DNA of 64,000 nucleotides from Acidimicrobiia bacterium (GTDB lineage Bacteria; Actinomycetota; Acidimicrobiia; Spongiisociales; ZC4RG35), in assembly GCA_965261135.1 (NCBI GenBank), contig OZ253443.1, forward strand, positions 2,300,391 to 2,364,390, read 5' to 3'. How positions within the stretch are numbered: position 1 is the stretch's first letter; every line of letters starts with the position of its first letter. The notes under the pieces were generated by a model. It made no database searches. It was not told the DNA's origin and saw only the letters and a program-made list of their open reading frames with translations. The position numbers were made by a program, and so were the translations under genes. This document shows positions 15,152-45,956 of the stretch, piece by piece.

Positions 15152-15240
15152 GGGCGAGTGGCGAAATTGGCAGACGCGCAGGATTCAGGATCCTGTGGGC
15201 TTTAACACCCGTGGGGGTTCAAGTCCCCCCTCGCCCACCA
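15152..15240 (+). tRNA. tRNA-Leu(CAG), CCA encoded
   Basis: Acceptor GGGCGAG/CTCGCCC, anticodon loop TTCAGGA, long variable arm, GTTCAAGTC T-loop, ends ACCA at 15240. Confidence 0.96.
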
Positions 15241-15440
15241 CGGTCCGTTAGGGAGTAATGGCCTGCGCGTTAGGGACTTAACCGCTGACGCGCTGATTTT
15301 GCCGTATTTTGGTGGTTTCGGGGGTTCTTTCCCCGTTTCAGAAGGTGGTCTTTGCTGGATCGCGTGGCCTTTAGGGTGCCCCGCTGTCAGGGTTGGGCTT
15401 TTCGGGCGCGGCGAAGCCGACAGTAGGGGTTACTGTCGGC
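15241..15440. repeat. Conserved left end, copy 1
   Basis: TTAGGGAGTAA (15248) and TTAGGGACTTA (15270); GACGCGCTGA; hairpin GCCGACAGTA-GGGGT-TACTGTCGGC (15416-15440); homologous to 37803-37995 and 39759-39947. Confidence 0.85.
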
Positions 15441-15461
15441 GAGAAGGCGGCATCGGTTGGG

Positions 15462-17249
15462 TTAGGGAGGTCCCCGGGGTGACTTGGCCGGAGTGGAGGG
15501 TGCCTCGCTGGGGGGCGTGTCCGTCGGTTCGGTTTCGGGGATGGTCTTTTCGTGTTGTGGTTGGTTTCTGCTGAAGCGGATGGCTTCTGCGATGTTGTGG
15601 GCTATGACTTTGGCGAGGGCGCCGAGGGTGATCGCCATCTGGTTGAAGACGCGGCACCATCCGACTGCGAAGGCGCCTTTGTCGCCGATCATCGAGTTTT
15701 TGGTTTCGCTGTTGTTGCGGCGGCCCTTGTAGCTTTTTGTCCACGCGGGCGTGCCCGAAGGGATTCGTTGGTAGCTGTCGAGTTTTTCGACCGGGACGGT
15801 TACCAGACCTTCACAACAGTATTCGTATTCGTCGTCGATGGCAAGATACGGAACCGGGCTTTTGGTGGGGGTTGCGTTGGAGTTGCGGGTCTTGGCGGAG
15901 GTTTTGACTCTTCCTGCGCATTGGGGGCAGATGAGTTGCACAGCACCGTCCTTGAGGTACCGGTGGACTGTCCACCGCCAGGGAGACCGGTCGACGCACC
16001 AATCTTCGAATGCCTCGCCGGTAAGGTCCGGGGACGGCACCAGGAGTTTTTCGGGTAGCCATGGTGAGAAGAACGACCCCAGATGGCGCATGAGCTGTTG
16101 TTTGTCGTTCCTTCCGACGTATACAGGGACAGGCCTTTCGACTTCGCCGGGGTTGTAGTCCATGACCACGTCCATGCCCTGCTTGTGGAGTTCTCGACAG
16201 AAGGTCTTTCGTTTGTTGGTGTAGGCGCGGTCGGCGATTATATCCTCGATCCCGGGAGCGATTTCTAATGCCCTGTCAACGAGGTCCAGTCCGACCAATC
16301 CGGGATTGGTGGCTCCGGGGACCAGGGCCATGGCGAGGATGAACTTCGGCGGAGCCTTTTTGAAGGCGAGCTTGCGGGGGTCGCCCGCCCACTTGACACC
16401 AGGAACCCCTGTAAGGAGATGGAGGTCATATCCGAGCACAATGCGGGCTTTTTCCCTGTTTGTGGCGGTTTTGTATGTGAGGCGGGCAAAGAAATCGTGG
16501 CTACGGATCATCCTCTTGTCGGAACCGAAAGTGCCGATCTCATAGGTGAAGGGACCAGTCACGGTCGGGAGTTCCGGTTCGGGAAGGTCAGCCTTGTCGC
16601 GTGCTGCAAGCTCGTGCTCGGCCAGAGCGTCCTTTTCCTTCACAAAGGTCTTGGACACCCCCCAAGATTCGAGGACCTTGGCATCTATAGAACCGGCAGT
16701 GATCAATCTCCGATATCTCTTGGGAACGGTTGCCTTCACAAAGGTGTGGCACATCCAGTCCAGATCGAAGATGGCTTCTATCTCTTCGGCCCATTTGGGA
16801 CCGAGAGCCTCTTCGAGACGTTGCATCTGGTCGCATACAGAGTGGTAACTGACCGGAGGCGGGTTGTCTAGGTCCCAGAGTCCCAGTTGGTAGGCAATCT
16901 GGGAAGGGAGACCGTTCAGCACGGCGCACAAATCGGTGCGGCGATAAGACCCCAAGATATTGGCAGCCACGATCGCGGCTAGGAATAGGGCTTCCAGGCT
17001 GATCCGAGACTTGTACCCCGGGTGGTCGCGGAGGCGCCTGTCCAACGACCGGACCCTGCGGTTCTTTCTGATTAGCGCAAGGATTGGCCGGACTTGTTCA
17101 TCGACGGTCCAGATGGGAAATGCGTTGTCGTCGAAAGTCGCAGGGAAGTCTGGCAGGCGCCGCATCTTGTCAAGGAACCGGGCATCGTCGGCGCAGAGCC
17201 GACCCTTCCTAGCGGCCCGTTGGCGGCGGCGGCGAAGCGCACGGGTCAT
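15462..17249 (-). CDS. DDE transposase-like protein (IS4/IS5/IS1182 clan), 595 aa
   Basis: Putative triad GSIDAK (D), IIADRAY (D), YKGRRNNSE (YREK-like E); CPQC...CC putative Zn motif; lies next to the element left end. Confidence 0.75.
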   Translation of the reverse strand: MTRALRRRRQRAARKGRLCADDARFLDKMRRLPDFPATFDDNAFPIWTVDEQVRPILALIRKNRRVRSLDRRLRDHPGYKSRISLEALFLAAIVAANILGSYRRTDLCAVLNGLPSQIAYQLGLWDLDNPPPVSYHSVCDQMQRLEEALGPKWAEEIEAIFDLDWMCHTFVKATVPKRYRRLITAGSIDAKVLESWGVSKTFVKEKDALAEHELAARDKADLPEPELPTVTGPFTYEIGTFGSDKRMIRSHDFFARLTYKTATNREKARIVLGYDLHLLTGVPGVKWAGDPRKLAFKKAPPKFILAMALVPGATNPGLVGLDLVDRALEIAPGIEDIIADRAYTNKRKTFCRELHKQGMDVVMDYNPGEVERPVPVYVGRNDKQQLMRHLGSFFSPWLPEKLLVPSPDLTGEAFEDWCVDRSPWRWTVHRYLKDGAVQLICPQCAGRVKTSAKTRNSNATPTKSPVPYLAIDDEYEYCCEGLVTVPVEKLDSYQRIPSGTPAWTKSYKGRRNNSETKNSMIGDKGAFAVGWCRVFNQMAITLGALAKVIAHNIAEAIRFSRNQPQHEKTIPETEPTDTPPSEAPSTPAKSPRGPP

Positions 17250-18175
17250 GCCCGCAGTGCCTCTCTGACAGCTTCGGTTTCATCGAAGGCGGTCTTGATG
17301 TGACCGAGCAACCCGTCCAAGGTGTTGGCCGACAGCGGACCCGCTACCTGCCTCAGAGCGGCAAGGGGCGTACCCGCCGCCAAGTGAGCAAGAATCCAGG
17401 TGGACCGCGCTCGGCGAAGCACAAGTCCCTCGCCGCTGCCGGGGTCGAGCCTCGCGCAGATGTTGTAAACCAGGTTGCGTCCCCCGGCCTGGATGAACCG
17501 ACCACTCCCGGTTCCCTGAAGGGCTTGACGGACCAGTTCTGTGTGCGGGGGGCGGAAGGGCGTCAAGCGGGAGTGCTTTCCCCTCACCCGCACCGCCAGT
17601 CGCCCGTTGCCCACCTCCTCAATATCCTCGACCTGAGCAACAGCGACCTCTTTGCCGTTCAGTCCCGCTCCCAGGGCGCTGGCCACTATCCACAGCCGCT
17701 CCGTTCGGTTTAGGCGGCCAGGCAGTTTGGCTACCCGCAGGTAGCACTTCTCTTCGGCACCGCCGTAGGGCGAAGCGATTGCGCTTTTGCCTACCTGCGG
17801 CGAAGGGGACGGCCACGCTCCCGGGTTGGCGGCCCGCCCCACAGCTCGCAGGACCCAACGGGCGTTCTCCCGCCAGGTCGTGGCCCGATGAGCGTTCACG
17901 GTCATTGTCCAGTATTCGACATTGTTCGGATTGAGGACGGTGCGGACATCGCTGGTCCCCAAAGAGCGGCTGGCCCAAACCGCCAAACCGGCCGTGCAAC
18001 GAAGAAACCACCGCGCCTTTTCCGGGTTCTTCGGACCCGCAGCCGCTACCCAACTCCGCACCGTGCCCATCAACGGCTCCAACACACGCAGGTCATCGTC
18101 GGTCCACCCGACGGGTTGCCACCGTTCCAACACCCTTGCCATGTCCGGCGCCAACACTGGGACTCGTTTCGCCAT
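17246..18175 (-). CDS. Tyrosine-recombinase-fold protein lacking the catalytic Arg and Tyr
   Basis: GAGLNGKEV...EDI (box A, R to N), VRGKHSR, LRRARSTW (box B), AAGTPL..LRQVAGPLSANTLDGL (box C, no His/Tyr). Its TGA overlaps the transposase ATG (ATGA). Probable start ATG 18175; the ORF track starts at 18190. Confidence 0.7.
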   Translation of the reverse strand: MAKRVPVLAPDMARVLERWQPVGWTDDDLRVLEPLMGTVRSWVAAAGPKNPEKARWFLRCTAGLAVWASRSLGTSDVRTVLNPNNVEYWTMTVNAHRATTWRENARWVLRAVGRAANPGAWPSPSPQVGKSAIASPYGGAEEKCYLRVAKLPGRLNRTERLWIVASALGAGLNGKEVAVAQVEDIEEVGNGRLAVRVRGKHSRLTPFRPPHTELVRQALQGTGSGRFIQAGGRNLVYNICARLDPGSGEGLVLRRARSTWILAHLAAGTPLAALRQVAGPLSANTLDGLLGHIKTAFDETEAVREALRA

Positions 18176-18538
18176 TACACGCCCTCCCACTGCTGATCCT
18201 CAACGGTGATCTCTGACGTTCCGCAACACCCCTCTGACCGGTTCCCACGAACAAACCCGCACCCGGGTAGCACCATCCCAACAGTCACCAAAAACGCGGT
18301 CTGAACACTCAAACCCGTCATGAACCAACGCAGTCGCAACACAACCAGTTGCAATCTCGGGTCGGGACTTGACGCGGTGCGGGAATCCATATAACCCAAG
18401 TGAAGTACAGGGTTCCCCGAATATGCAAACACGGTCGAAACTTCCCTTAAGGACCTGGTCAAAGCAATAGTGTGTTCATTACGATCGACACTACTTTGAG
18501 GGTGGGACACTCCAGAATGCTCGACTACGCTTCACCGC

Positions 18539-18871
18539 ATGCCCCAACCCCGCCAACACCCGATCACATACCTCGCAAAAAACGGTTCCTTCCCGGACGG
18601 CCCTTTCAGACCAAAAACCCCACCGGAGGTCTATCTCGCCGCTGCTTTGGCCAGGCGATTGAAGACGGGCATCCGGTATAACTCCATCCGATCCGTCGCC
18701 AAAAAAGCCGACCTCAGTCCCCAAACCATCATCAACATCCTCAACGGCAAATCCTGGCCAGACCTCCGCACCATCGCCAAACTAGAAAACGCTTTTAATA
18801 GCTGGCTATGGGGTACCGAACACCGCAGAGACTCGTGGACACACCGCAATAACCGCACTGATCGGTCTTAA
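18539..18871 (+). CDS. XRE-family helix-turn-helix regulator
   Basis: SIRSVAKKADLSPQTIINILNGKSWPDLRTIAKLE; divergent from the recombinase-like/transposase operon. Confidence 0.8.
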   Translation: MPQPRQHPITYLAKNGSFPDGPFRPKTPPEVYLAAALARRLKTGIRYNSIRSVAKKADLSPQTIINILNGKSWPDLRTIAKLENAFNSWLWGTEHRRDSWTHRNNRTDRS

Positions 18872-19225: not shown

Positions 19226-22200
19226 CTAGCGGAACCCCATTGCGCAGATAATTGTCGGTTCGGCATGTGTGGTTGTTTGTGGGGGGATGCAGAGCATGCC
19301 GTCTCGCCAAAGGCTTACCACAAGGGCAGCGAGGTCTTTTGGAGAGCGGTCCTTGACGGCTTTAGCCAGTGTCTGTGTGGCGGACTCGCGTAGTGGTCGT
19401 TCATTTATGGCGTCGTGGGCGTTTCGGAGATCGGCCAGGGTGAACAGGAGATTGTCCTCGAAGGTGTCCATGTGGGCATGCAACTCTTGCCATACCCTGC
19501 CACGGACGCCTTGTAATGCGCCGGTGGCTTGGCCTCGTGGAGTACGAAGCGGCCCTTCGAAGGCTGCTGCTGTCAGTTCGTAGTGATCCTTGAGCCGTGG
19601 TAGGGGTGGGGTGGACGGGTCGCACGCCGCGAGAGTTAGTGCTTCTTGGGCTGTCATGCGTCTCTGTTCACCGTCGGGACTCACGAACGCGAACGCGTCG
19701 GAGCCGGTCACTGTTTGGGAATGTACAAGCACACCGCTCCAGTCGCTTCGATCCGGGCTTTGCCGTGTTGAGTGAACAACGTTGGGAAGGGTGCTCGCCC
19801 GTTTTGCAAGTTCAGGGTGCCGCTCTTGGGCTTGGCGCCAGATTTCATATGCCATGGAAACGGGATCGACATCGTCAACGCCGTCTTTGAGCATGTAGTT
19901 AGACGATTCGTCGTAGAGCCCGCAGATGATCTCTCCCTCGCGTTCGTCACCAAAGAACTTCTCGTCGGAACCGAGAAGTTCGGCGTTTTCGACCAAACGT
20001 TCGCGTATGCGCTTCCGGAGGGTGATTACGCCTTCGAGGGTGTTGGACGGCATTAGAGAGTAGAGCAACACTTCGGACGAGGTTTGACCGATGCGGTCCA
20101 CCCGTCCAGCGCGTTGGATGAGTTTCACCAGAGCCCAAGGAAGGTCATAGTTGACGACAATGTGAGCGTCTTGGAGGTTCTGGCCTTCAGAAAGCACATC
20201 GGTGGATACCAGCACTCTCAGTTCGCCGCCGAGGTCCTCCGGCCGTGACCGGTTGGAGACAGGCGAGAAGCGGTGGGCTGTTCTTGTTGGGTTTTCGGAG
20301 TTTCCGGTGACCAACGCCACACCTTCGACACCGCGGCGGCGCAGTTCCTCGGTCACGTATCTGGCGGTGTCTGCGGCTTCGGTGAACACCAGCACCTTTT
20401 CATTGGCGTGCTGCTGGGCGACGAGTTCCTCCAGAGCGTTCAATTTGCCGTCCGTTTCGGGTGTCCAAGTTCCGAAGTTGTCTAGCATCTGGTCGATCAG
20501 ATCCGTGTCGTGCAGCAGGCGTTGTCGGAATTTACTTACGAAAGCGCCGACGGGGGCCCAACGGACGTTCTTGGGTTTGGTGGCTTCGAGACGAGCGTAG
20601 GCTTGTTCTGGGCTGATACCTTCCCGCTTTACTAGTGTCCCTTCGTCGTCCGTGTCGTCTCCGTCGATGTCGGTTTCCACCGGCCACAGTGCGTTGCTGA
20701 CCGAGCCGACCGGTACTGGCAGGTTGTTATCGAGAGCGTGGGACGCAACCAGGTTGCGCAGTCGGTGACGGCGAAGCGTCGCCAGGAACGCAGGCCCGGA
20801 CGACGAGAGCCGTTTGAACATCATGATCCGGTTGAATCCAGAGAGATCCCCGTGGGCTGCTTCCCGAAGGTCTGCCAAGAGTTTTGCCTCGTCGGGTGTG
20901 GCCGGCTGATAGCGGGAGTTCAGGTAGGTTCCCACCTTTGATCGAGGCAGTTTCAGATCTTTAATGGCGTCGAGGGTTGTGCCAGAAGTCATGGGCTTGG
21001 CGGGGTCGCTCTCTGCCATTTCCCGTTCGACCGGCACTGGGATCCGCTTAGGGAAGTAGAACACTGTACCGTCGCCGAAACGCAGGTACTTGCGGCTCTC
21101 GCTGTCGGTGTCTGCGTAGTTGTCTTCCACGAAACGCCGGGTCCGTCTGATCAGGTAGTGAGACATCAGCCTTTGCCAGTCTTCCAAGTGCGCGGACCGT
21201 TTGAACGCGGCCAAGGTCGATGTGCGGCCACGGCAGGCCCGTTCGAAGTCGAGGTCTCCTGCTTCTGCGATGGCCTGCTCGGGCCGGATCCCCAAATCGG
21301 TGTCATTGTCGAGGAACAGCGACAACTGCGCCGCCAGATCGGAGAGGTCCTTGTTGTAGGGGGTGGCTGTCAGTAGTAGAACTTTCGAGTCGTTGTCGGA
21401 AATATATGCTTTCAGCGCCCGATGATCGCGGCGTTTCTCGTTGCGGAGGTTGTGAGCCTCGTCTATGATGACCAGGCGGTGCCGCCGCTCCTCGGGTAGC
21501 AACTTGTGGACCATCGACAGCGACATCACCTCGCCTCGCACCTCGTAGTCATGGAGGTAGCCATCCCACATGTTCTTAAGGTTCTTGGGGCACACCACCA
21601 GCGTTTCATAGCCGTTTTCTTCTTGGAGCAGCCGCGCTACTGCTGTTCCGATCAGTGTCTTCCCCAGCCCTACCACGTCGCCGATCATGGCCCCGTTCTT
21701 CTGAGTGACGATCCTCGCTGCTATCTTCACCGCGGCTGCTTGGAACTCCAACAGTTCCTGCTGCATCGACGCTGGCAATCCGTAACTGATCAGGCCCTCC
21801 CGCGCCTCTTTTGACAGGTGGTAGGCCATTTTCAAATACACGAGATAGGGATCGAGAAGATGCCCTGAGGCCCAGGACTCGTCCAGCACCTCAACAAGGT
21901 GCGGCATCACCTCAAGAGACAGCCGATCATCCCAGCGATCGTTGAACCAGCGAGCGAGCTTCCTGGTTGCGTCAACATCCAGCATGTCCACATTCAACTC
22001 GCCCTGGGTTCGCAACCCAGAATGGGTGAGGTTCGACGAGCCAACATAGGCAACCCGCGGAGCAGCGGTGTCGTCGCGGTGACACAGATACAACTTGGCA
22101 TGCAACCGATGGGCGGTATGCAACTTCACAGCCACATCGCCATCGCTGATCTGGCGGCGCAGAGTCTGCAGGCCCGCTTCGTCGCCGACCACCGGCAAAC

Positions 22201-22519: not shown

Positions 22520-22524
22520 GACCG

Positions 22525-27107: not shown

Positions 27108-27161
27108 AAGGCATTGGACGGCCTGCCGAGACCAGCGGTTCCACAGGGAAGGATTCTGAGG

Positions 27162-28082: not shown

Positions 28083-28301
28083 GGAATGAACTCAAAGTGG
28101 CTCATAGGACATTAGTTGGGGAGTGACGGTGGATTCAACGACCCAATGAACCCCGCCCTTCCCGAAAGCATGGCACCACCAGTCCTCAGGCCGCCCTTTG
28201 TTCCGTAACATCCAGTTCAAGTTCTCAATGTGGCTGCGGACCCTCGTCACAGGCGACAACCAGCCACTCCGAAGCCAGGGAGACAGACACGGAGATCAGC
28301 G

Positions 28302-30374: not shown

Positions 30375-30570
30375 TGGTCACTAATTGTCCTGGCCCCACA
30401 CCCTGTCCCACGGGTGCCACTGGTTGCCGAGTTCCCGGTCGCGATCAGCACCGGGCTCCACTGAGAATGCACCCGTCCCGGGGGATGCAGAAAAAGGATG
30501 GTAGTCGGGATTGAGGATCCACCCGATGCGGGGGTTACAGGCAACGCCGCCTAACCCAAAAGACACCCGC

Positions 30571-31215: not shown

Positions 31216-31436
31216 GCATTGCCAGGGTAGATGTTTGGGTCACCGCAAGTCGAACGGGTTCTGTGTTCTCCTTCGGTAATCGAGACTGGGGAAATCGACC
31301 ATCGCCAACCAGGTAAACCTCAACCATCAGACAACGACCTCTCCAACCGGGGTTGAAACGCGCTGAAGGTACCGTCGCTCGGGGGATGGCGATCTCGCTG
31401 TCCAATTGGGTGTTAACGAGCCAGCTTGGCGGCATT

Positions 31437-34400
31437 TCAGTCGAACTCGACTCGGATCTGGATGCTGATCACCGTCCCATCTTTGGCCTTCGCGGTCGGA
31501 GTTGCTAAGAGCTGAAAACCAGCGTCAATCAAGAAAGCGAGGTGTCGGTGCTCGGATGCTCGGATGCGACCTACGGTCACACCGACATCGTTGGTTACGA
31601 CAAGGGGTCGGGGGTTCTCGTCACCGGTGGCTATGGACACTGGGAGGTCCCCGGCCCCCCAAGCGACACCGCTGGCATCAACCTTCATGGTGCAGACATT
31701 GCCACCGACGAGGGATGCACCGATTTCGGTTTCCGGGACATGGACGAAGTAGAGCAGGTCAGCGACTTCCGTGGGTACTGCGTCGAAGTTAGTTCGCCAT
31801 CGGGCTGGCCCCATGTTCGCCAGCCACGGGCGCAAACGGTGGGGGGAAATTCCGTCGAAAGCGGCTCGCTTCCCGACTTCTACTGCGATACGCCGCGAGC
31901 GCACACCGCCCATAAGAAGTCTCAAGGCTTCAGCGTCCGGGACACCGTAGTGAAGGTGGGCAGGAAGGGAAGGGCTCACTTCGTCGTTGCGATCAGCGTT
32001 GATCCACTCGACGACCGTTCCAAGGGTAAATGGGAGGTGGTGCTCACAGATGCGGGTGAGGAAAGTGCTTAGCTGCTCAAACCGGAAGGATTCCTCGTCT
32101 CCGCCTTGAACTTCCGAGAGATGAGTTTCGGCGAGGTTCTTGAGCGGCATACCTCGCACCCAGTCCAGCACGAGGGCCAGCAGGTCAACATTTATGGTTT
32201 CGATGGGACCGTAGCGGCGACGCTTGAACCGGAAATCCCTTGGGTTGGCCAGGCCCAGCAGGAGGTGCAGTCTGCCATCTCTGAGGATGGCGTCGATGAG
32301 AGCAACGGGATCATCAAACGCGGAAGGCTCCAGGGCGTCGATGGCCGCCGCCGCGCCACCGGCGACCTCTTCCAACACGATGTTGGCGGAGAGGGGAGTG
32401 CCGCTTCTAGCCCACCGACGGCGTTGAACCGGCGGGGTTTGCTCATAGAAATCAGCAACGAGTGAAGCGATGGCTCCCCATCTACTCTGGATGCCGGGGG
32501 GCAACTGGTGCCAGGCAAGGGTCTCCTGTATCCCGGCGATGACCCGGTCGCGGCGGTCATCGGGATTCAGCATGTCAGCGATGTCAGCGAGGAACCAACA
32601 GTAGGCGAGGAAGCCGTCGACCGTGGCCGGTACATTCTGTAGGGCGAGGGCAGCGGTTGCATGCACCAGGGTCTCGTACTCGGCCAGTTGCTCCAAAGCA
32701 CCCTCCACGCTCAGCGTGCTACGGATCTCGGGTTGCCGGTCAAGTCCTTGCAGTGCTTGACGTGGGTTGGGAGCGCCGTACTCATAGTTGACCACCACCC
32801 ACCCCTCGGTCTCTCGCCCAGCGCGTCCCGCGCGTCCCGCGGCATTCATCAATCCGACCGAGTCGATGAAGGCGTTGAACTTGGTGCCGTCGTAGTAGCC
32901 CCGCTCGGAGATGATGACAGTCCGGACCGGGAGGTTGACTCCTTCCGTTAACGTGCTGGTGGCGCAGAGGATTTTGATTGTCCCCTGTCTTACAGCGTCT
33001 TCAATTTCGGCTTGGATGTCCGCGGGTAGTGCTGCATGGTGGTAAGCGACGCCGCGGCGAAGCACCGTGACCAGGTTGTGGGCGGCACCCATTCGCTGCT
33101 CAGCCAGTTGGGCGATCTTGACCGTAGCTTGAGTCTCGTCACGGGTCTTTGCGATCTCTTCAGCTAGCCTCTCGGCGGATGGCCTGGTCGCATGCACGAT
33201 AAGCACCGGGCCTGATCTGGCAGCGAGGTCGACAATCGGCAGGAGTTTCTCGGCTCGGCTCGGTTTCTCCTGCGTGCCGCTGGGCGTGGTGCTGATCTGG
33301 CCGATCTTGGCTCGGCGGCTCGCAATCGCCGCACCTTCGTCGGCATACAGGTTGATAACCCCATAGAGGTCCGTGACAGTGCGTGGGACGCTTTGCCGCC
33401 CCGTTGGCGCACGCACGACTTTTGATGCTCGATCTTCCCAGTATGTGTAGGTGGCGTGAAGGCGGCGAGGGCCGCGCCAGGTGCTGGTTGTGGACGTTCC
33501 GGCTCCTTCTATTCCGAGCCATGTCTGGATGGCGGCCGTTCCTCCTAGGGCCGCCGACAGCAGGAGAATCCGATGGTCTGTGTCGGATGTCAGCGAGTGG
33601 AGCCTCGAAATGGTGGTTTCAAAGGACCAGCCTCGGGTGTCGTCGCCCACCAAATGCGCTTCGTCGAATACGAACAACCCGAACTTGTCAATGAGAGCCT
33701 GCTCGTCAGAACGAAGGCGAGACGCGAGTTGCTCCGGGGTCATGACGACTACATCAGCATGGGCGCCATGCGAGTCACCGAGTGGTCCGTCTTCGACGGT
33801 CCTGCGGCGCAATACCCACAGTCGGCGATCCAAACCTTCCCGTGTTTCGCGGCAGAGGCTGTGGCTGGGTGCGACGAAGCACACACCGGTGTCAGCCACT
33901 GCGAGGTGCTGGATGACAAGCAGCTGGGACAGCAGGGTCTTGCCGGCATTGGTGGGGAATGTGATCACTGCGCGTTTCATGTTGATCTGGAGAGGGCTAT
34001 TGGCAGCATCTGTGAGCAGTTTGACCTGCGGTGGCCAGAGCGTCATGACCGGAGGATCGCCGAGGGTCATGGCCTGCCCGACATCGTGTGGCGAATTGTC
34101 TGGGAGGATGGCCCAAATTGAAGACCGTCCGAAGTCGTCGCAGAGGTCTACGAGATGGGCGGCAACCCATCGAGAGTCGAGGTCTCGATGAGATGCCGGG
34201 TTGTTCGCTGCCCGGGTAAGGATGCGCCGCGCTTCGTCGAGGGAGCCGGGGCGGCCGAAAGTGAGATACTCCTGCAGTAGGCGGACACCCTCGGTGACTC
34301 CAGTAGCACTGGCCAACCCGGTGTTGAATAGATCCGCGTTTGGTGCGGCAAGTGAAATGGCTTGCGCCTGAGTCGACAGTGACCGCAGCAGTTTCAAGGT

Positions 34401-34865
34401 GGCGCTCCGGTCAAGTTTGAGTAGCGCACATCCGAGTTCTAGTGATGCTCGGCCCGGTTCGGTCACTAGAGCGGCCGAGGGGGAAGGTAGTCGACGACCC
34501 ATGGCTGTCGCATTAGGCGTTCTATCACCTCGGATGGCGCTGACCTGGCCGGCGAATGTAAGCACGAGTTGTTGGCCCGGGTCGAGATCGTCGTTCTGGA
34601 GCGCGAGGTCAAAGATGTGTGCGGCGACAGCGTTTGCCTGGACTTGCCGGGTGGTCTCGTAGATGGCGAGTTGGGGCCGGACCGTTCCGACATGGTGGAG
34701 ATTCCATGCCGTCTCGAGGAGTCGGTCGCTGACCTCCTGGTCGGATCGGAAGAACGCCGCCACTTCCGCTTCGGCCAGCATCCTTCGCAGTTGTTCAGGG
34801 CTCGGTAAGTTAGCGGTTTGATCGAGGGCACCGGCAACCAGCCTGCGGTCCAGGGCTTGATCCAT
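31437..34865 (-). CDS. Ski2-like DEAD/DEAH helicase (Hachiman HamB-like)
   Basis: FPTNAGKT, VMTPEQL, FVFDEAHLV, LLSAAL, RGVAYHHAAL, ATSTLTEGVNLP, NAAGRAGRAG. Confidence 0.85.
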   Translation of the reverse strand: MDQALDRRLVAGALDQTANLPSPEQLRRMLAEAEVAAFFRSDQEVSDRLLETAWNLHHVGTVRPQLAIYETTRQVQANAVAAHIFDLALQNDDLDPGQQLVLTFAGQVSAIRGDRTPNATAMGRRLPSPSAALVTEPGRASLELGCALLKLDRSATLKLLRSLSTQAQAISLAAPNADLFNTGLASATGVTEGVRLLQEYLTFGRPGSLDEARRILTRAANNPASHRDLDSRWVAAHLVDLCDDFGRSSIWAILPDNSPHDVGQAMTLGDPPVMTLWPPQVKLLTDAANSPLQINMKRAVITFPTNAGKTLLSQLLVIQHLAVADTGVCFVAPSHSLCRETREGLDRRLWVLRRRTVEDGPLGDSHGAHADVVVMTPEQLASRLRSDEQALIDKFGLFVFDEAHLVGDDTRGWSFETTISRLHSLTSDTDHRILLLSAALGGTAAIQTWLGIEGAGTSTTSTWRGPRRLHATYTYWEDRASKVVRAPTGRQSVPRTVTDLYGVINLYADEGAAIASRRAKIGQISTTPSGTQEKPSRAEKLLPIVDLAARSGPVLIVHATRPSAERLAEEIAKTRDETQATVKIAQLAEQRMGAAHNLVTVLRRGVAYHHAALPADIQAEIEDAVRQGTIKILCATSTLTEGVNLPVRTVIISERGYYDGTKFNAFIDSVGLMNAAGRAGRAGRETEGWVVVNYEYGAPNPRQALQGLDRQPEIRSTLSVEGALEQLAEYETLVHATAALALQNVPATVDGFLAYCWFLADIADMLNPDDRRDRVIAGIQETLAWHQLPPGIQSRWGAIASLVADFYEQTPPVQRRRWARSGTPLSANIVLEEVAGGAAAAIDALEPSAFDDPVALIDAILRDGRLHLLLGLANPRDFRFKRRRYGPIETINVDLLALVLDWVRGMPLKNLAETHLSEVQGGDEESFRFEQLSTFLTRICEHHLPFTLGTVVEWINADRNDEVSPSLPAHLHYGVPDAEALRLLMGGVRSRRIAVEVGKRAAFDGISPHRLRPWLANMGPARWRTNFDAVPTEVADLLYFVHVPETEIGASLVGGNVCTMKVDASGVAWGAGDLPVSIATGDENPRPLVVTNDVGVTVGRIRASEHRHLAFLIDAGFQLLATPTAKAKDGTVISIQIRVEFD

Positions 34866-35900
34866 CTACTCGATGCCCTTCAGGATTTCTGAGCGGACAT
34901 CTGCTGCGAACGCCGCCAAATCGGGGACCTCGATGACAATGCCTTCGCGATGTTGAGGGGTCTCAAGGTACGGGAACACCCTGCGAAGTCCCCGAAATGG
35001 GCGATCTGGCAATGCTTGGGTGGAGGTGGTTCCTACCGATACTCCGACACCGCCAGATGCATCCCGAATCGTCCAGAGCTTAACGATCTTGCCTGCGAGC
35101 TGCTGTATCCGCGGGTCGGCGTTGAGTTGAAGAGGCTTGGACATCCGCGCTAGATACATGGCACCCCGTGTCTTGAGTTGAGCGGACGCACCACTAACGA
35201 CCTCAGTGACAGACTTCGTGATCGAGTCATGCCGCTTCGATTCCCACAGCCGGAACCGAAGGTCGGGAGAGTCAGAGTCGTAGAGCGACAAACCGTCGCC
35301 TCCAGGGTCGATGACCGAGAAGTGATCGCGAGGCACACATATGGGCACCCCCCAACCACCGTTGATATCCTCCGCCAGACAAGCCCATAGATGCTCGACT
35401 ACGGCACCCTGTAGCCGCGGCTCGTTACTGTCGTCATCGAAGTCGCTGAGCAGGTACGCCTCGAGTACATCCTTGGTCGGCTCGTCGTGGGCGGGCCCAC
35501 CTCCGTGTCGCTCCATCCAGTTGGCTAGGGCCGCGGGGCTCGGATCAAGCAATCGGCAGACGATGTGAATGGTGACCAACCGCACGACTTCGCGGCGATG
35601 CCCGCTAATGATCTGAGCGTGAAACCACCAAGCGTCGCTATGCCGCGTCAGAGTTAAAGCGAAGTGATCGGAAAAAGTCACGACAGATGTTTCCAGGTTC
35701 GATCCTCCCTGCCGTGCTTTATTGGACGATGGGGACGGACGGGAATTGGGATCACTGGCAATCTCCGTTAAGGATATGTTCCCTAGGTTTGCTGTTTGTA
35801 CGGATGGTGGTTTCGCCTTCGCCGGTAGGAGTCCGGACCAGTCACACAGGTATCGGAGTGGCCGCCACCAAAAGAACCGGGGGCTGTGGCGGTGCCACAT
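34866..35900 (-). CDS. PD-(D/E)xK-like nuclease (Hachiman HamA-like); true start probably near GTG 35681
   Basis: GAVVEHLW, DPGGDGL, RFRLWESKRH; stop directly abuts the helicase start (TAG-ATG). Confidence 0.6.
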   Translation of the reverse strand: MWHRHSPRFFWWRPLRYLCDWSGLLPAKAKPPSVQTANLGNISLTEIASDPNSRPSPSSNKARQGGSNLETSVVTFSDHFALTLTRHSDAWWFHAQIISGHRREVVRLVTIHIVCRLLDPSPAALANWMERHGGGPAHDEPTKDVLEAYLLSDFDDDSNEPRLQGAVVEHLWACLAEDINGGWGVPICVPRDHFSVIDPGGDGLSLYDSDSPDLRFRLWESKRHDSITKSVTEVVSGASAQLKTRGAMYLARMSKPLQLNADPRIQQLAGKIVKLWTIRDASGGVGVSVGTTSTQALPDRPFRGLRRVFPYLETPQHREGIVIEVPDLAAFAADVRSEILKGIE

Positions 35901-36110
35901 AATGCTGGCCAGAACAGGTAACTCATCCCAAGCACTTCTCTAACTGGTTCCTACAAAAGACCTCGAGCGTACTGGTCAAGCGCCTTACGGAATGGATGGA
36001 TCCGCAAGGGCCTAAGTGCCGTCCGGAGACCACGACAGAGCACCGATAGTGCCGAACCGGGTAGCACAGTAGACCGGCCGGAGGTGTCAGTCACGGCTTT
36101 ACAGGCAGAT

Positions 36111-37154
36111 CTAGTCGAAAGTCTCGTATGGGATCTCAACGCCCAAATCCATGTCCGCCACCGCCTCGGCAAGCACATGAGAAGGTATGGCCGCATAGTG
36201 CGGCGAGAAAGCTACTTGGTCTTCGTATTCGCCATGGGTCAAATTCGTAGCCATCCCTACAACATAGCCATCCTCTGAGATGATCGCCCCGCCGCTGTCC
36301 CCAGGACGTGTTATGGCCGAATAAAGAAACAGTTCCGTCCTATCAGCCGCTACGACATGTTCGTTCGTCACTTCTCCGCTTTGCATGATGAGATAAGCAT
36401 CTGTCTCGCTCGGCCTCCTTGGTCTGACATTGGGTACCTTGGGGTACCCGAAGGTGTAGACCCTCTGTGCGATCATCGGAGCCAGAAAGACAAGACCCCG
36501 TGCTGGCGTCAGTGTTTCATCCACGCGGATTACGGCTACGTCGTAGTCGTTGTGTTTGAAGATCGAGTTTGACCTTATGACTATCTCCTGCTCTTGGAAC
36601 CTCTGGGTACATCTGACTGTCATCATCTCCACAACATGGCGACAGGTGAGCACGTGATAAGGATCGAAGACGATGCCACTTCCCGATCTCTCGTCACCCT
36701 TTTGGTTTTTTCCGACAATCTGCACAATTGCAGGAGAAACCTCATGATGGACGAATCTGCCACCTAACGAGCGGGCCAGCCACAGACTTCCCCTGCTTTG
36801 GGCTTCCGTCTGTTCGCCGAGGGCGTAGTAGGACTTGGGGATCATGACGAATCGGCCGCGGCTGCCCATCTCCACGAGAATGTTGTTTGATGCGAGTCGA
36901 TCAAGCAGATGTCGTATCTGGTGTATGTACTTGTTCGCTTCGTCTCCCAAGGTCTTCTCCAAGAACTCCACAAAGTCCCTACCGTCAAACGGAACGATCC
37001 GCCCTTGTTCTGGGGTTTTTCCTATGGCCTGGCAGAATTGTGGGTAGTTAGTGGGAGAAAAGAACGCTACAGCTAGCGTCGCTATTGTCTTCTCCATCTC
37101 GACAGGCAAGGGAGCAAGTCTGGAGTATCTTTCCCGTGCCATTCTGTTAGCCAC
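36111..37154 (-). CDS. Trypsin-like serine protease domain protein with an N-terminal helical domain
   Basis: GSGIVF, LTCRHVV (His), DYDVAVIRV (Asp), PGDSGGAII (Ser). Confidence 0.85.
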   Translation of the reverse strand: MANRMARERYSRLAPLPVEMEKTIATLAVAFFSPTNYPQFCQAIGKTPEQGRIVPFDGRDFVEFLEKTLGDEANKYIHQIRHLLDRLASNNILVEMGSRGRFVMIPKSYYALGEQTEAQSRGSLWLARSLGGRFVHHEVSPAIVQIVGKNQKGDERSGSGIVFDPYHVLTCRHVVEMMTVRCTQRFQEQEIVIRSNSIFKHNDYDVAVIRVDETLTPARGLVFLAPMIAQRVYTFGYPKVPNVRPRRPSETDAYLIMQSGEVTNEHVVAADRTELFLYSAITRPGDSGGAIISEDGYVVGMATNLTHGEYEDQVAFSPHYAAIPSHVLAEAVADMDLGVEIPYETFD

Positions 37155-37689
37155 CCTTCTCGGTCATAGTGCCCAACGTGATTTGAATAGACAAACTAAT
37201 ACTGGCAGCGGTGGCGTTGCGGCTTCCAATCTACGGGAAGAGAATCTCCTGAAGGACGCAATGCCGCCCTACCCCCGATCCCTATTTGTGCGCAGACTCT
37301 AACTGGCGTTCGGTCATCCGGTGCGGCTATGGGTCGCGGAATACCTGCCTAAAGCTCTTGGCTAACGCTCGGGAGGGGTAGGAAGTTCCCTCTTTCGATC
37401 CTTTCTATCTCTTGAACAGCATCAACGGATAAAAACCCGGGAACCTGATCAGGCCATCTGGTCTCACTCTATCTTGGGAGAACCGCCTCTGTGCTGATGA
37501 CTCCACCTTCTCTCCACTCAGGGCTCTCGGGAGTCCGCAACGCGACCTCGGTCTGAAAGCAGGGGGAAAAGATAGGTTCAAGCTGGCTCCTGCTAAAGCA
37601 ACTTGCCTCCGGCGATTTCCGTGGCTCAGGGGTGTCACCAATCACCCCAACAAAGAACACGAGGTACCCCGAAGCCGGTGTTTTGGGGT

Positions 37690-37783
37690 CCGCAAATGTG
37701 GAACAACCCCCCTTTCAAATGTGGAGCACTCCTGGCAACCCCCGCTAGGGTGCTGGTCAGGGGTGGTCACTAACGGACCACCA
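37690..37783. repeat. Conserved right end, copy 1 (end of element 1)
   Basis: CAAATGTGGA at 37693 and 37716 (23-bp period), GGTCAGGGGTGG, TIR, then CCA repeats; homologous to 39668-39758. Confidence 0.85.
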
Positions 37784-39755
37784 CCACCAAGACCAAGGGG
37801 TCTTAGCGATTTATGGCCCCGACTGTTAGCCACTTAGCGGCAGACGCGCCGATTCTCCTTGGATTTCCCTGGTTTTAGGGGTTCGCTACCGTTTTGGAGG
37901 GTGTTTTAGGCTGGTCAGCAGCCGTGATCCGGCGGCTTGGGGGAAGGGCCTGCTTTCTCGGACGCGGCGTGGCCGACAGTAGGGGTTACGGTCGGTTCAG
38001 GGGAGCGGTGGGGATGGTACAGGCTAGGGGATCATCGCCGGTTGAGAACGTCGTCTGGGTGGCGCAGTCGGCCGGGGCCGGACCAATGACCCGGGGGTGG
38101 CGAGTTCCGAACCAACCTTCATGGGGACCTGCTATCGGGAGGAGGAACATGCCCTTGGGGAACTCCTGGAGGGAATGACTCTGGCCAGCAACAGGTTCGC
38201 CGTGACAATCCCCACGGCACCTATCAGCACATAGTCGATGTTCGCCACTTGTATGTCCGAGAACACCCACAACCACAGCAGGCCGAAAAGGGGAGTGGCA
38301 TAGGAGAGGGCGCTGATGGACAGCGATCTGGTGCGGAGCATCGCAGTGCGGTGACATACGGCGGTGCCACATTGCACTATCAGCCCGTAAGCAAATGCGG
38401 CGGCAAGAGGCAGAATGCCCATGCGCTCTCCCGTGCCGAGAGCGATCACGAGTGTGGGCACCGACGCGCCGAGGCTGCCCACCCCAATCGCCAACAGCAC
38501 GCACGCCGACTCGGTTCGCTGCCGGTCAGCGGCTGATGCATGGCCCATGGTGCACAGATCGGAGGCCATCTCGGATCCCCATCGGAATGCCCTGGCACTG
38601 AACGATATCAACACGGGGGCCAGCAACGCCAGGAGCAATCCGATAACCAAACCTCCGAGACGTGCAGGCCGAGTAGAGGAGGCCAGGTCGGTCGTTCCCA
38701 GCACGACCAACGTCAGACCCGCGAAAGCAAGCAACAGCACTCCAAAGGTACCCGCGGTCAGTTTGCGGTATCTGCCCACGGTACGATCCTGTCTTGACAA
38801 CAGCACCACAAAGAGAATCGGCGCAGCGGCATTCAGTATGGCGGTGACGGCAGTATCCACATAGTTGGTGGACAACACATAAGGGATCATGCTGATCTGA
38901 GCGCAGATACACACCAAGCTCAAGCGGGACAGCAACATCTGGCGTTCCCGGTCGGCCGTGCCCTCGCCCCGTCCGATCCGCCAAGGGGCGGCCCTGCGGA
39001 GCAGCAACCGCAGAACGGTCCTGTCGGCCACCAGGTTCTTGTGGAAAAGGGCCAGATTCAACGCGACACCCGCGGAGTTGCCCACGAAAATCATTCCCGA
39101 CAACAGAAAAGCGTCCTCATGGGGCATGACCTCCACGAATATGGGGAACAGGGAGGCCAACAACACCGCGCCTAGTTGCCACCTCACCGGCGCGTACCGC
39201 CCCGGTTGGCGCGCAACGGATACGGAAGAGCCCTGACTGGTCATTAGGGCATCTAGCCTATGCTGGGAGCCCGGCCATCTACGAACCGCCGAACAACCGG
39301 CTCGGCGCGTCAGGCGTTCAGTCAGGGGTACCAGCGGAGGACTTCGTTCGTAGCGTGAAGAATCCGCCAGATACCAGCACCTACGCCCGATATGGGGATC
39401 CATTTTGACATACTCCTTGGAATGGCTCGCCGAACTCGCCGATGCCGCCCCGACAGTGCCCCAGGTTCCGCCCCCCACGCGTCTACTATTCCCAACGCCG
39501 CATGGCAACGCAGGCCACTCTTGAAGAATCACTACAAGAGATAGTCTGTCGCACCCGCCTCTTAGTGCTAGAACTCCAGGAGGAAGGTTTCTTTGTCGAG
39601 ACCTTCGGATTTTCCTGCATCGACGACTTCACCCCCCGTCGGGAAACCCAACCACACCTACTCTGCTGAAATGTGGAGCCCCACCCCCTTCAAATGTGGA
39701 ACCCTCTGCGAGCCCTTTTCTAAGGCGCAGGTCAGAGGTGGTAGCTAACAGCCCA
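37784..39755. mobile_element. Element 2: about 2-kb non-autonomous element (left end, EamA cargo, right end)
   Basis: Left-end motifs at 37803/37826 and hairpin 37973-37995; right-end motifs at 39669/39692; no mobility gene. Confidence 0.65.
38132..39244 (-). CDS. EamA/DMT family transporter (probable start ATG 39244)
   Basis: About ten hydrophobic segments; VDTAVTAILNAAAPILFVVLL and ISALSYATPLFGLLWLW are DMT-like repeats. Confidence 0.75.
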   Translation of the reverse strand: MTSQGSSVSVARQPGRYAPVRWQLGAVLLASLFPIFVEVMPHEDAFLLSGMIFVGNSAGVALNLALFHKNLVADRTVLRLLLRRAAPWRIGRGEGTADRERQMLLSRLSLVCICAQISMIPYVLSTNYVDTAVTAILNAAAPILFVVLLSRQDRTVGRYRKLTAGTFGVLLLAFAGLTLVVLGTTDLASSTRPARLGGLVIGLLLALLAPVLISFSARAFRWGSEMASDLCTMGHASAADRQRTESACVLLAIGVGSLGASVPTLVIALGTGERMGILPLAAAFAYGLIVQCGTAVCHRTAMLRTRSLSISALSYATPLFGLLWLWVFSDIQVANIDYVLIGAVGIVTANLLLARVIPSRSSPRACSSSR

Positions 39756-41046: not shown

Positions 41047-41055
41047 AGGCGCTGG

Positions 41056-45951: not shown

Positions 45952-45956
45952 GGACA

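What the first reader, a model, noticed from the sequence alone, without database searches (positions are those of the whole stretch)
15235..37789. Element 1 boundaries: imperfect TIR and CCA/CCACCA direct repeat 22.5 kb apart
Left GGTCCGTTAGGGA (15242-15254) is the reverse complement, with one mismatch, of right TCACTAACGGACC (37767-37779). The tRNA-terminal CCACCA (15235-15240) recurs at 37781-37786. At the element 2/3 junction GCCCACCACG (39751-39760) repeats the tRNA junction GCCCACCACG (15233-15242). A short duplication with TIRs fits DDE chemistry better than the long attL/attR duplication typical of integrases. The duplication length (3 vs 6 bp) is ambiguous because the right end itself ends in CCA.
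Basis: seen in the sequence. Interest (0 to 1): 0.75.

Follow-up and report, generated by a model that had tools for sequence, protein, structure and literature searches.

The report
Transposon family targeting tRNA gene ends

Summary
A near-identical strain lacking the element (L028) places the breakpoints at 15242 and 37779. The element (E1, 22,538 bp) has a perfect 10-bp terminal inverted repeat (12/13) and is flanked by ACCAC, which is the tRNA discriminator base, CCA and one more base.

No active integrase was found. Next to the tRNA-proximal end sit three conserved genes. One is a 595-aa divergent IS4/Tn5-superfamily DDE transposase with invariant D189, D340 and E515. One is a 314-aa protein with a full tyrosine-recombinase fold but no catalytic tyrosine. 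The third is a small Xre-like regulator.

Relatives in Acidimicrobiia genomes lie next to tRNA-Leu, Ser, Lys, Val and Pro genes and tmRNA, always in the same orientation. The left end starts exactly 5 nt after the acceptor stem in most junctions. In tandem arrays exactly 5 nt separate one element's right end from the next left end.

E2 (2 kb) is a non-autonomous relative and E3 is a truncated one.

Best reading: an orientation-specific DDE transposon that makes 5-bp target duplications. The dead recombinase is inferred to select the target, as TnsF does in Tn6022-like Tn7 elements. The mechanism is not demonstrated. Cargo is anti-phage defence genes and differs between strains.

The parts
15152..15240 (+). 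tRNA-Leu(CAG), the target gene; left intact by the insertion
   Evidence: ARAGORN. It follows the conserved fhaB/pstP/rodA cluster.
15237..15241 (.). Left copy of the 5-bp target duplication ACCAC (discriminator A + CCA + 1 nt)
   Evidence: Comparison with the empty site in L028.
15242..15461 (+). E1 left end (LE). It holds the terminal inverted repeat 15242-15254, two direct TTAGSGAYTTA boxes (15248-15258 and 15270-15281), T-rich tracts, and the hairpin GCCGACAGTAGGGGTTACTGTCGGC at 15416-15440.
   Evidence: About 230 nt are conserved in E1, E2 and E3. The LE aligns in register from its tip in 20 elements from diverse loci.
15462..17249 (-). tnpA: 595-aa divergent IS4/Tn5-superfamily DDE transposase (D189, D340, E515; Y507-x3-R511-x3-E515-x2-N518; four invariant cysteines, two of them in a C441-x2-C444 motif)
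   Evidence: The window protein itself has no Pfam hit, but 11/27 relatives match PF01609. The AF2 model has pLDDT 81, and its top Foldseek matches are Tn5 transposase 1mm8/1muh.
17246..18190 (-). 314-aa tyrosine-recombinase-fold protein without catalytic Tyr (dead recombinase; inferred target selector or architectural partner). It overlaps the tnpA start by 4 nt.
   Evidence: AF2 model pLDDT 88.5. Foldseek matches Cre, XerA, XerH and Tn1549 Int at prob 1.0, E down to 5e-7. There is no conserved Tyr C-terminal of R262, L294 is invariant, and the Arg-I position is variable. The gene sits upstream of tnpA in 13 of the fetched loci.
18539..18871 (+). Divergent 110-aa Xre/HTH_3-like regulator of the core module
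   Evidence: Conserved in 10 loci by tblastn. Pfam HTH_3 is recorded for the homologues in L027 and L033.
19226..37154 (-). E1 cargo: HKD-Snf2 helicase (19226-22519), type IIG restriction-modification enzyme (22525-25737), HamB-like helicase (31437-34865), trypsin-like protease (36111-37154), plus unknown ORFs
   Evidence: Pfam and PADLOC. Closely related core modules carry different cargo in L027 and L033.
37680..37779 (+). E1 right end (RE). It holds two AAATGTGGA boxes (37694-37702 and 37717-37725), the motif GGTCAGGGGTGGT, and the terminal inverted repeat 37767-37779.
37780..37784 (.). Right copy of the 5-bp target duplication ACCAC
37785..37796 (.). 12-nt filler C-ACCAA-G-ACCAA between the E1 duplication and the E2 left end. 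It is made of ACCA-type units and may be a set of old footprints. Unexplained.
   Evidence: Read directly. L029 has a version 3 nt shorter.
37797..39754 (+). E2: complete 1,958-bp non-autonomous element with an LE, one 466-aa membrane-like ORF (38132-39532, minus strand) and an RE, but no transposase
   Evidence: LE and RE HMM hits. The same element occurs in L022, L028 and L029.
39755..39759 (.). 5-nt ACCAC between the E2 right end and the E3 left end
39760..42159 (+). E3: decayed element with an LE, a truncated tnpA copy (39970-40542, about 90% identical to E1 15560-15968) and a PIN_10/HTH-DUF433 gene pair. It has no right end.
   Evidence: It is absent from L029, whose homology to the window resumes at 42159-42160.
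42160..42195 (+). Truncated remnant of an older left end (TTGCGGTTTAGGGCCCTGTTATGTAGCG...)
   Evidence: Comparison of L029 with the window.

Best explanation
E1 (15242-37779) is an autonomous, cargo-carrying transposon of an undescribed family found in Acidimicrobiia.

Shown: the exact ends, the 5-bp flanking duplication against an empty site, a conserved 13-nt terminal inverted repeat, and asymmetric subterminal repeats. Also shown: a conserved core module at the left end (Xre-like regulator, dead tyrosine-recombinase-like protein, IS4/Tn5-like DDE transposase). Across the family, insertion is always in one orientation. The left end starts 5 nt after the last acceptor-stem base of a tRNA or tmRNA gene, so the RNA gene stays intact.

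Inferred: the DDE transposase binds the GGNNNGTTAGCNA tips and performs strand transfer with a 5-bp stagger across positions 73-77 (discriminator, CCA and one more base). The dead recombinase, probably derived from a tRNA-targeting integrase, binds the tRNA gene DNA and/or the element ends. In that role it would supply site and orientation choice, by analogy with TnsF or TnsD in Tn7-like elements. Each new insertion at the tRNA pushes older elements outward. This would produce the array tRNA-E1-E2-E3 with exactly 5 nt at each RE/LE junction. E2 would then be mobilised in trans, and E3 is a wreck.

Whether movement is cut-and-paste or goes through a circle is unknown.

The confidence given (0.65) is for the DDE-transposon reading as a whole. 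For the specific role of the dead recombinase as target selector I would put about 0.45.
For: 1. Empty site. L028 matches the window at 100% and 99.2% in the two flanks and lacks exactly 15242-37784 minus one ACCAC.

2. Transposase. D189, D340 and E515 are invariant, together with Y507/R511/E515/N518. Eleven of 27 relatives match PF01609. The best structural match is Tn5 transposase.

3. Partner protein. It has the Cre/Xer fold but no conserved Tyr. The Arg-I position is variable and the His/Trp-III position is Pro. It is encoded directly upstream of tnpA in 13 of the fetched loci, and also on a Streptomyces plasmid.

4. Target. In 21 of 25 genome loci the left end abuts the 3' end of tRNA-Leu(CAG), Ser(TGA), Ser(GCT), Lys(TTT), Val(TAC), Val(GAC), Pro(CGG) or tmRNA, always convergent with tnpA.

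5. Spacing. In a hand-aligned set of 18 tRNA/tmRNA junctions, 16 have exactly 5 nt between acceptor-stem position 72 and the LE tip, whatever those 5 nt are. Three tmRNA junctions found later also have 5 nt. At least 11 RE|5 nt|LE junctions inside arrays also have exactly 5 nt.

6. Matching 5-mers flank elements in L023 (ACCAG), L020 (ACCCA), L022 (ACCCT) and L003 (ACCAT).

7. The variable tip positions 3-6 are the same at both ends of one element but differ between elements: E1 TCCG/TCCG, L019 GGTG/GGTG, L020 GCAG/GCAG.

8. Core modules 98% and 85% identical in transposase sequence carry different cargo at the same tRNA in other strains.

9. There is a precedent for an inactivated tyrosine recombinase acting as target selector of a DDE transposon: TnsF (PMC10293859).
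Against: There is no functional evidence. No excised, circular or transposed copy was seen, and a scan of JGI metagenome contigs for the E1 RE-LE junction found nothing.

The window's own transposase does not reach any Pfam threshold, and the Foldseek match to Tn5 is weak (E 6e-3, TM about 0.3).

The empty site alone cannot separate a 5-bp staggered-cut duplication from a site-specific crossover inside a 5-7 bp identity.

Some junctions break the rule. L008 and L022 have 10 nt, L007 has 6, L046 has 9, and the L019 flanks match at only 3 of 5 positions.

The role of the dead recombinase in targeting rests only on analogy. Two partner proteins that are 70% identical sit at different tRNAs, Lys in L005 and Ser-TGA in L006.
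Confidence: 0.65

Rival explanations
1. Site-specific recombination. The element excises as a circle carrying RE-ACCAN-LE and integrates by crossover within a short core shared with the tRNA 3' end. The catalyst would be either the 314-aa recombinase-fold protein using a non-canonical nucleophile or an integrase encoded elsewhere. The DDE protein would be an accessory or a passenger.
For: The 314-aa protein has a complete two-domain tyrosine-recombinase fold, and 3 of 33 relatives weakly match Phage_integrase. tRNA and tmRNA 3' ends and tandem arrays are the classic signature of integrase islands. The asymmetric ends with different subterminal repeats resemble attP arms. 'Foreign' 5-mers occur at internal junctions, such as RE|GCCAA inside a Lys array and RE|ACCCA inside a Ser array. 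This could mean the core travels with the element.
Against: No Tyr is conserved C-terminal of Arg-II. The expected Tyr position is an invariant Leu, and the Arg-I and His/Trp-III positions are lost. No other integrase was detected among the E1 ORFs. From general knowledge, a 5-bp repeat is shorter than known tyrosine-recombinase overlaps. The fifth base of the repeat differs between near-identical elements at the same tRNA (ACCAC in the window and L027, ACCAT in L033), as expected if it comes from the target. The DDE gene keeps its catalytic triad and a fixed position and orientation relative to the LE in every full-length locus.
Confidence: 0.15
2. DDE transposon as in the best explanation, but the transposase itself reads the tRNA target through its roughly 180-aa helical N-terminal region or its Cys-rich insert. 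The dead recombinase then has another job, such as end synapsis or bending, control of excision, immunity, or resolution of arrays.
For: The transposase has a large helical N-terminal region and an invariant Cys-containing insert. Partner proteins 70% identical are found at different tRNAs. A Streptomyces plasmid homologue of the gene pair has no tRNA nearby.
Against: The only studied precedent for an inactivated tyrosine recombinase in a DDE transposon is as a target selector. tRNA genes are the ancestral targets of integrases. Clades of the partner protein largely follow the tRNA that is used.
Confidence: 0.2
3. RNA- or DNA-guided targeting. The conserved ~230-nt left end would encode a guide that pairs with the tRNA gene, as in IS110 bridge RNAs or the CAST homing guides.
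For: The non-coding left end is long, conserved and contains a conserved hairpin.
Against: The longest exact match between each element's left end and its own tRNA is 6-9 nt. That is no better than against the left ends of elements at other tRNAs (mean 7-8). There is no Rfam match. The hairpin lies just downstream of the tnpA stop codon and is equally well read as a terminator.
Confidence: 0.05

Closest known systems
Tn6022-like Tn7 transposons with TnsF (Faure et al. 2023, Mol Cell, PMC10293859)
   Same: A DDE transposon carrying cargo. It inserts at one fixed chromosomal site in one orientation and has asymmetric ends with multiple subterminal repeats. It encodes a tyrosine-recombinase-derived protein without a working active site, which in Tn6022 selects the target. 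The 5-bp target duplication of Tn7 is cited from general knowledge.
   Different: The transposase here is IS4/Tn5-like (DDE_Tnp_1), not TnsB (rve). No TnsA, TnsC (AAA+) or TniQ was found among the E1 ORFs. The target is the 3' end of tRNA/tmRNA genes, not comM. The dead recombinase keeps a whole Cre-like two-domain fold and lacks the zinc-finger N-terminus described for TnsF. Homology to TnsF beyond the superfamily level was not tested.
IS4/Tn5-superfamily insertion sequences (IS50/Tn5, IS10, IS4, IS1634, IS701)
   Same: A DDE catalytic core with a Y-R-E signature after the third acidic residue, short terminal inverted repeats, and a target duplication.
   Different: The protein is too divergent for the Pfam model to detect it directly. 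It has a partner protein, strict site and orientation specificity, ends that differ beyond 13 nt, and 2-22 kb of cargo. The duplication is 5 bp, against 9 bp for Tn5 and Tn10 (general knowledge).
Integrase-borne genomic islands at tRNA/tmRNA genes (P4-type and similar; tycheposons)
   Same: The same targets, the same tandem accretion next to the RNA gene, strain-variable defence cargo, and preservation of the RNA gene.
   Different: There is no active tyrosine or serine integrase. There is no attL/attR repeat that rebuilds part of the tRNA, only 5 bp beyond the acceptor stem. The element has terminal inverted repeats and encodes a DDE enzyme.
Casposons and tRNA-homing CRISPR-associated transposons (types V-K, I-B, I-D)
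   Same: Transposon-type elements with inverted repeats and a target duplication that home to the 3' side of tRNA genes (PMC4046053; PMC10293859).
   Different: Those elements use Cas1, or TnsB with TnsC plus TniQ/TnsD or guide RNAs. CAST homing lands tens of bp downstream of the tRNA (30-33 nt for CyCAST), and casposon duplications are about 14-15 bp. Here the insertion is at positions 73-77 with a 5-bp duplication, and there are no Cas genes.

Membership tests
IS4/Tn5-superfamily DDE transposase (Pfam DDE_Tnp_1, PF01609) | Sequence match to the family model | tested here: inconclusive
   The window protein has no hit even at E<=10. Eleven of 27 aligned relatives match PF01609 (best E 5.8e-6) and 3 match PF13751.
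IS4/Tn5-superfamily DDE transposase (Pfam DDE_Tnp_1, PF01609) | Conserved D, D, E triad with a Y-(2)-R-(3)-E-(6)-K-type signature around the E | tested here: met
   D189, D340 and E515 are invariant in 27/27 sequences. Y507 and R511 are invariant, N518 is present in 26/27, and position 522 is K or R in 20/27. The spacing is Y-x3-R-x3-E, slightly different from Tn5.
IS4/Tn5-superfamily DDE transposase (Pfam DDE_Tnp_1, PF01609) | RNase-H-like fold resembling Tn5 transposase | tested here: inconclusive
   The AF2 model has pLDDT 81 and pTM 0.83. The top three PDB matches are Tn5 transposase, but they are weak (prob 0.69-0.87, E 6e-3 to 3e-2, TM about 0.3). They are followed by P element, Mos1 and retroviral integrases.
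IS4/Tn5-superfamily DDE transposase (Pfam DDE_Tnp_1, PF01609) | Terminal inverted repeats and a target-site duplication at the element ends | tested here: met
   The inverted repeat matches at 12/13 positions, and the 5-bp duplication is checked against an empty site. The tip consensus is shared by LE and RE across the family.
Tyrosine recombinase / phage integrase (PF00589) | Two-domain core-binding plus catalytic fold | tested here: met
   Foldseek gives 47 PDB matches at E<=1e-3, including Cre, XerA, XerH and Tn1549 Int, aligned over about 300 columns.
Tyrosine recombinase / phage integrase (PF00589) | Catalytic R-K-H-R-H/W-Y residues, above all the Tyr nucleophile | tested here: not met
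   23 of 33 sequences have no Tyr at all after Arg-II (R262). The expected Tyr position is an invariant Leu (L294). The His/Trp-III position is Pro in 31/33. The Arg-I position (aligned to Cre R173) is R in only 12/33. The beta-hairpin Lys is not conserved.
Tn7-like transposons | TnsB (rve-type DDE) with TnsC AAA+ regulator and TniQ/TnsD (plus or minus TnsA) | tested here: not met
   Pfam, NCBIfam and PADLOC scans of the E1 ORFs show no rve, TnsC-type AAA+ or TniQ proteins.
Tn7-like transposons | Orientation-specific insertion at a fixed attachment site with a 5-bp duplication | tested here: met
   The left end is always proximal to the tRNA, and the spacing is 5 nt. This is a shared behaviour and does not by itself establish membership.
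Integrase-type tRNA genomic island | Active integrase gene, and attL/attR direct repeats that include the 3' part of the tRNA | tested here: not met
   No active integrase was found. The direct repeat is 5 bp (at most 7) and lies beyond the acceptor stem.
IS110-type bridge-RNA or other RNA-guided elements | Non-coding end that encodes an RNA with a target-matching segment | tested here: not met
   There are no above-background matches between the left end and the tRNA and no Rfam family. Only exact-match complementarity was tested.

The most novel reading that the evidence does not exclude
A compact system of two proteins (plus a regulator) has evolved in which an integrase that lost its active site still recognises tRNA/tmRNA genes and hands the site to a Tn5-like DDE transposase. 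The result would be a site- and orientation-specific transposon able to carry at least 22 kb. Different lineages would be retargeted to different tRNAs by changes in the dead recombinase. This would be a second, independent recruitment of a dead tyrosine recombinase as a transposon target selector. It would occur in a transposase superfamily that has no AAA+ adaptor, and it would explain how defence islands accumulate at tRNA genes in Acidimicrobiia.
Probability: 0.45. Interest if true: 0.85.

Novelty: new variant of a known kind. Interest (0 to 1): 0.8.

Why it matters
Islands at tRNA genes are normally attributed to integrases. Here the same genomic pattern (tRNA/tmRNA target, intact RNA gene, tandem accretion, variable defence cargo) seems to be produced by transposase chemistry. 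If so, annotation pipelines that look for an integrase will miss these elements. Public annotation in fact calls both core proteins 'hypothetical'.

If the dead recombinase is the target selector, the system shows that Tn7's strategy of borrowing a DNA-recognition protein arose independently in the IS4/Tn5 superfamily. The system is small: two proteins, about 220 nt and 100 nt of end sequence, and at least 22 kb of cargo. It uses a precisely defined, harmless insertion point, which makes it an attractive subject for studying how a transposase is directed to a target. It also gives a concrete mechanism for strain-level turnover of anti-phage genes in an uncultured, partly sponge-associated lineage.

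Tried and rejected
1. A homologous recombinase in E2. The 466-aa E2 ORF is unrelated to the 595-aa protein and looks like a membrane protein, so E2 is non-autonomous.

2. Direct family assignment of the 595-aa and 314-aa proteins. Pfam at E<=10, NCBIfam, and PDB sequence searches with single sequences and with profiles all gave nothing. Only scans of individual relatives and structure prediction were informative.

3. A guide sequence in the left end. No excess complementarity to the cognate tRNA was found.

4. A known RNA family in the ends. None was found. The consensus promoter/terminator scan was uninformative.

5. A right end for E3. No AAATGTGGA pair or RE motif exists downstream of 39754. 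Comparison with L029 shows that E3 is fused to an older left-end remnant at 42160.

6. ACC as part of the right end rather than a duplication. This is rejected because some right ends are followed by GCCAA, GGTGC or CATAG, and because the spacing to the next left end is always 5 nt.

7. A circle or tandem junction (E1 RE-N0-12-E1 LE) in JGI metagenome contigs. There were no matches. This is weak evidence, because this organism's contigs come from ENA.

8. Naming by annotated relatives. tblastn against 72,556 plasmids gave only three weak hits, annotated as hypothetical or unannotated.

9. An exact-sequence look-up of the window transposase found no record.

10. Literature searches found no description of a tRNA-end-targeting IS4-like transposon. 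They did yield the TnsF precedent.


Full report
**Checking the observation.** tRNA-Leu(CAG) ends at A15240. GGTCCGTTAGGGA (15242-15254) and TCACTAACGGACC (37767-37779) are reverse complements at 12 of 13 positions, with the outer 10 perfect. With zero mismatches the 13-mer occurs only at these two places in the window, on opposite strands. The window comes from an actinobacterium. Upstream of the tRNA lies the conserved fhaB-pstP-rodA cluster, and the closest public relatives are Acidimicrobiia metagenome-assembled genomes.

**The empty site.** Looking up the exact FhaB protein of the window returned contigs from closely related strains with different content after the tRNA. One of them, L028, is 100% identical to window 37778-47558 and 99.2% identical to window 4602-15439. 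Across the junction it reads CTCGCCC-ACCAC-CACCAAGACC. The window reads CTCGCCC-ACCAC-[GGTCCGTTAG ... CTAACGGACC]-ACCAC-CACCAAGACC. E1 is therefore 15242-37779 (22,538 bp), flanked by ACCAC at 15237-15241 and 37780-37784, and no long att repeat exists. At this single site the ACC periodicity would also allow a 4- to 7-bp duplication, or a 2-bp one if ACC belonged to the right end.

**Three elements, not one.** E1, E2 and E3 share a conserved non-coding left end (LE) of about 230 nt. It has two direct TTAGCGATTTA-type boxes and a hairpin. E1 and E2 also share a right end (RE) of about 100 nt. It has two AAATGTGGA boxes and a GGTCAGRGGTGGT motif. E2 (37797-39754) is complete, but it carries only a membrane-like ORF unrelated to any recombinase. 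E3 (39760-42159) has an LE and a truncated copy of the E1 595-aa gene but no RE. Strain L029 lacks E3, which shows that E3 is fused to the remnant of a still older LE at 42160.

**The transposase.** No active integrase was detected among the E1 ORFs. The gene next to the LE (15462-17249, minus strand) encodes a 595-aa protein with no hit of its own in Pfam, NCBIfam or the PDB. It has 53 homologue clusters. Eleven of 27 aligned relatives match Pfam DDE_Tnp_1. D189, D340 and E515 are invariant, as are Y507 and R511, which gives a Y-x3-R-x3-E motif. A confident AlphaFold model (pLDDT 81) has Tn5 transposase as its three best PDB matches, although these matches are weak. A profile search of 1.84 billion representative proteins finds 1,508 relatives at E<=1e-3. 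Public annotation mostly calls the close relatives 'hypothetical'.

**The partner protein.** The next gene upstream overlaps tnpA by 4 nt and encodes a 314-aa protein (17246-18190). Its model (pLDDT 88.5) matches Cre, XerA, XerH and Tn1549 integrase over both domains (prob 1.0, E down to 5e-7). The active site, however, is gone.
- 23 of 33 family members have no tyrosine at all C-terminal of the conserved Arg-II.
- The position where the nucleophile is expected is an invariant leucine.
- The His/Trp-III position is proline.
- The Arg-I position, aligned to Cre R173, is variable.

This gene precedes tnpA in 13 of the fetched loci. A divergently transcribed Xre-like gene (18539-18871) is conserved in 10 of them. 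The same three-gene order occurs on a Streptomyces clavuligerus plasmid, where no tRNA is adjacent.

**Family-wide target rule.** In 21 of 25 genome loci encoding a relative of the transposase, the LE abuts the 3' end of a tRNA or tmRNA gene. The tRNA is always convergent with tnpA. The targets are:
- Leu(CAG)
- Ser(TGA)
- Ser(GCT)
- Lys(TTT)
- Val(TAC)
- Val(GAC)
- Pro(CGG)
- tmRNA

A distant relative sits at Tyr(GTA).

The LEs of 20 elements align in register from the tip. In a hand-aligned set of 18 tRNA/tmRNA junctions, exactly 5 nt separate the last acceptor-stem base from the LE tip in 16, whatever those 5 nt are (ACCAC, ACCAA, ACCAT, ACCCG, GCTCT, GCCAA, GCTAT, ACACC, ACTGA, ACCAG and others). 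Three tmRNA junctions found later (L009, L012, L021) also have exactly 5 nt.

RE profile searches show that at least 11 internal junctions in arrays are RE|5 nt|LE. Both spacings can equal 5 only if each insertion duplicates exactly positions 73-77.

Identical 5-mers flank elements in L023, L020, L022 and L003. LE and RE share a 13-nt tip consensus, GGNNNGTTAGCNA, and then diverge. The variable tip positions co-vary within an element.

Exceptions exist: 10 nt in L008 and L022, 6 in L007, 9 in L046, and a 3/5 match in L019.

Some internal junctions carry 5-mers typical of another tRNA. This is most simply explained by composite or nested units moving together, but it is also what a carried-over core would give.

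**Mechanism.** The data fit an orientation-specific DDE transposon that makes a 5-bp staggered insertion immediately after the acceptor stem and so keeps the tRNA intact. Successive insertions at the tRNA would build outward-growing arrays.

Specificity is inherited within a lineage:
- Related partner proteins use the same tRNA.
- Different lineages occupy different tRNAs in one genome.
- In this window only tRNA-Leu(CAG) is occupied. No LE follows the other three tRNA genes.

I found no guide-like complementarity in the LE, so recognition is probably by protein.

The most economical candidate is the dead recombinase. Integrases classically recognise tRNA genes. An inactivated tyrosine recombinase, TnsF, has been shown experimentally to direct Tn6022-like Tn7 elements to comM (PMC10293859). 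This role is inferred, not shown. The transposase's own N-terminal domain is a credible alternative.

Site-specific recombination by the recombinase-fold protein is the main rival. I consider it unlikely because that protein has no nucleophile.

**Comparison with known systems, and novelty.** The element behaves like Tn7/Tn6022: a fixed site, one orientation, a 5-bp duplication, a borrowed DNA-recognition protein, and defence cargo. It fails the membership test for that family, because it has no TnsB, TnsC or TniQ.

Its transposase belongs to the IS4/Tn5 superfamily by catalytic signature, but only distantly.

It mimics integrase islands and tycheposons in genomic pattern, but not in enzymology.

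Five literature searches found no description of such elements. I therefore rate it a new variant of a known kind.

**Cargo.** The cargo consists of anti-phage genes: a type IIG restriction-modification enzyme, an HKD-Snf2 helicase, a HamB-like helicase and a protease. It differs between strains whose core modules are 85-98% identical in transposase sequence.

Noticed in passing
window 19226-37154: The E1 cargo is a defence island. It holds a type IIG restriction-modification enzyme (PADLOC E 6e-161), an HKD+Snf2 helicase (DrmD-like) and a HamB-like DEAD helicase next to an unassigned 344-aa ORF that may be a Hachiman partner. It also holds a trypsin-like protease and several ORFs with no family (26250-31215).
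   Followed up: partly
L027, L030, L033, L026 (same tRNA-Leu site in related strains): Core modules 85-98% identical in transposase sequence carry quite different cargo. L027 has Abi_C plus the HamB-like helicase. L033 has a DnaJ-domain protein and a DrmA/MZB-like helicase. L030 has an SNF2/MZB DISARM-like set. The site is a strain-level hot spot for exchange of defence genes.
   Followed up: partly
window 37785-37796; L029 (reverse strand) about 4320-4340: Between the E1 duplication and the E2 left end lies the 12-nt filler C-ACCAA-G-ACCAA. L029 has a version 3 nt shorter. It looks like stacked old 5-mers, each separated by one nucleotide, and may be excision footprints. It remains unexplained.
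   Followed up: no
L021 and L017 (whole loci): These loci hold arrays of about nine to fifteen right-end-like sequences spaced 0.3-2.5 kb apart, many followed by 5 nt and a left end. The L021 array starts at a tmRNA 3' end. They look like long trains of miniature, mostly gene-poor elements.
   Followed up: partly
window 40642-41760: The E3 remnant carries a PIN_10-domain protein next to an HTH/DUF433 protein. This is a likely toxin-antitoxin pair.
   Followed up: no
L034 (Streptomyces clavuligerus pSCL3, 254930-258095): The same gene order (regulator, dead-recombinase-like protein at hhalign prob 99.3, DDE homologue at 25% identity) occurs on a linear Streptomyces plasmid. All three are annotated as hypothetical or 'transcriptional regulator', and no tRNA lies within 4 kb. 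The gene pair is therefore older and wider than the tRNA-targeting clade.
   Followed up: partly
window 15416-15440, 37972-37996, 39924-39948: The hairpin GCCGACAGTAGGGGTTACKGTCGG is almost identical in E1, E2 and E3, and also occurs in L021-L023. In E1 it lies just downstream of the tnpA stop codon. It may be a U-tail-less terminator insulating tnpA from tRNA read-through, or a protein-binding site.
   Followed up: partly
L026 8121-9941: In one strain an unrelated IS (DDE_Tnp_1_4 transposase) sits between the tRNA-Leu gene and fhaB. Further IS110- and ISL3-type genes lie in the adjacent island.
   Followed up: no
window 9090-9710: An internal ~200-nt tandem repetition (about 70-83% identity) lies inside the PknB-like kinase gene. 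It corresponds to the repeated PASTA domains and is ordinary.
   Followed up: no
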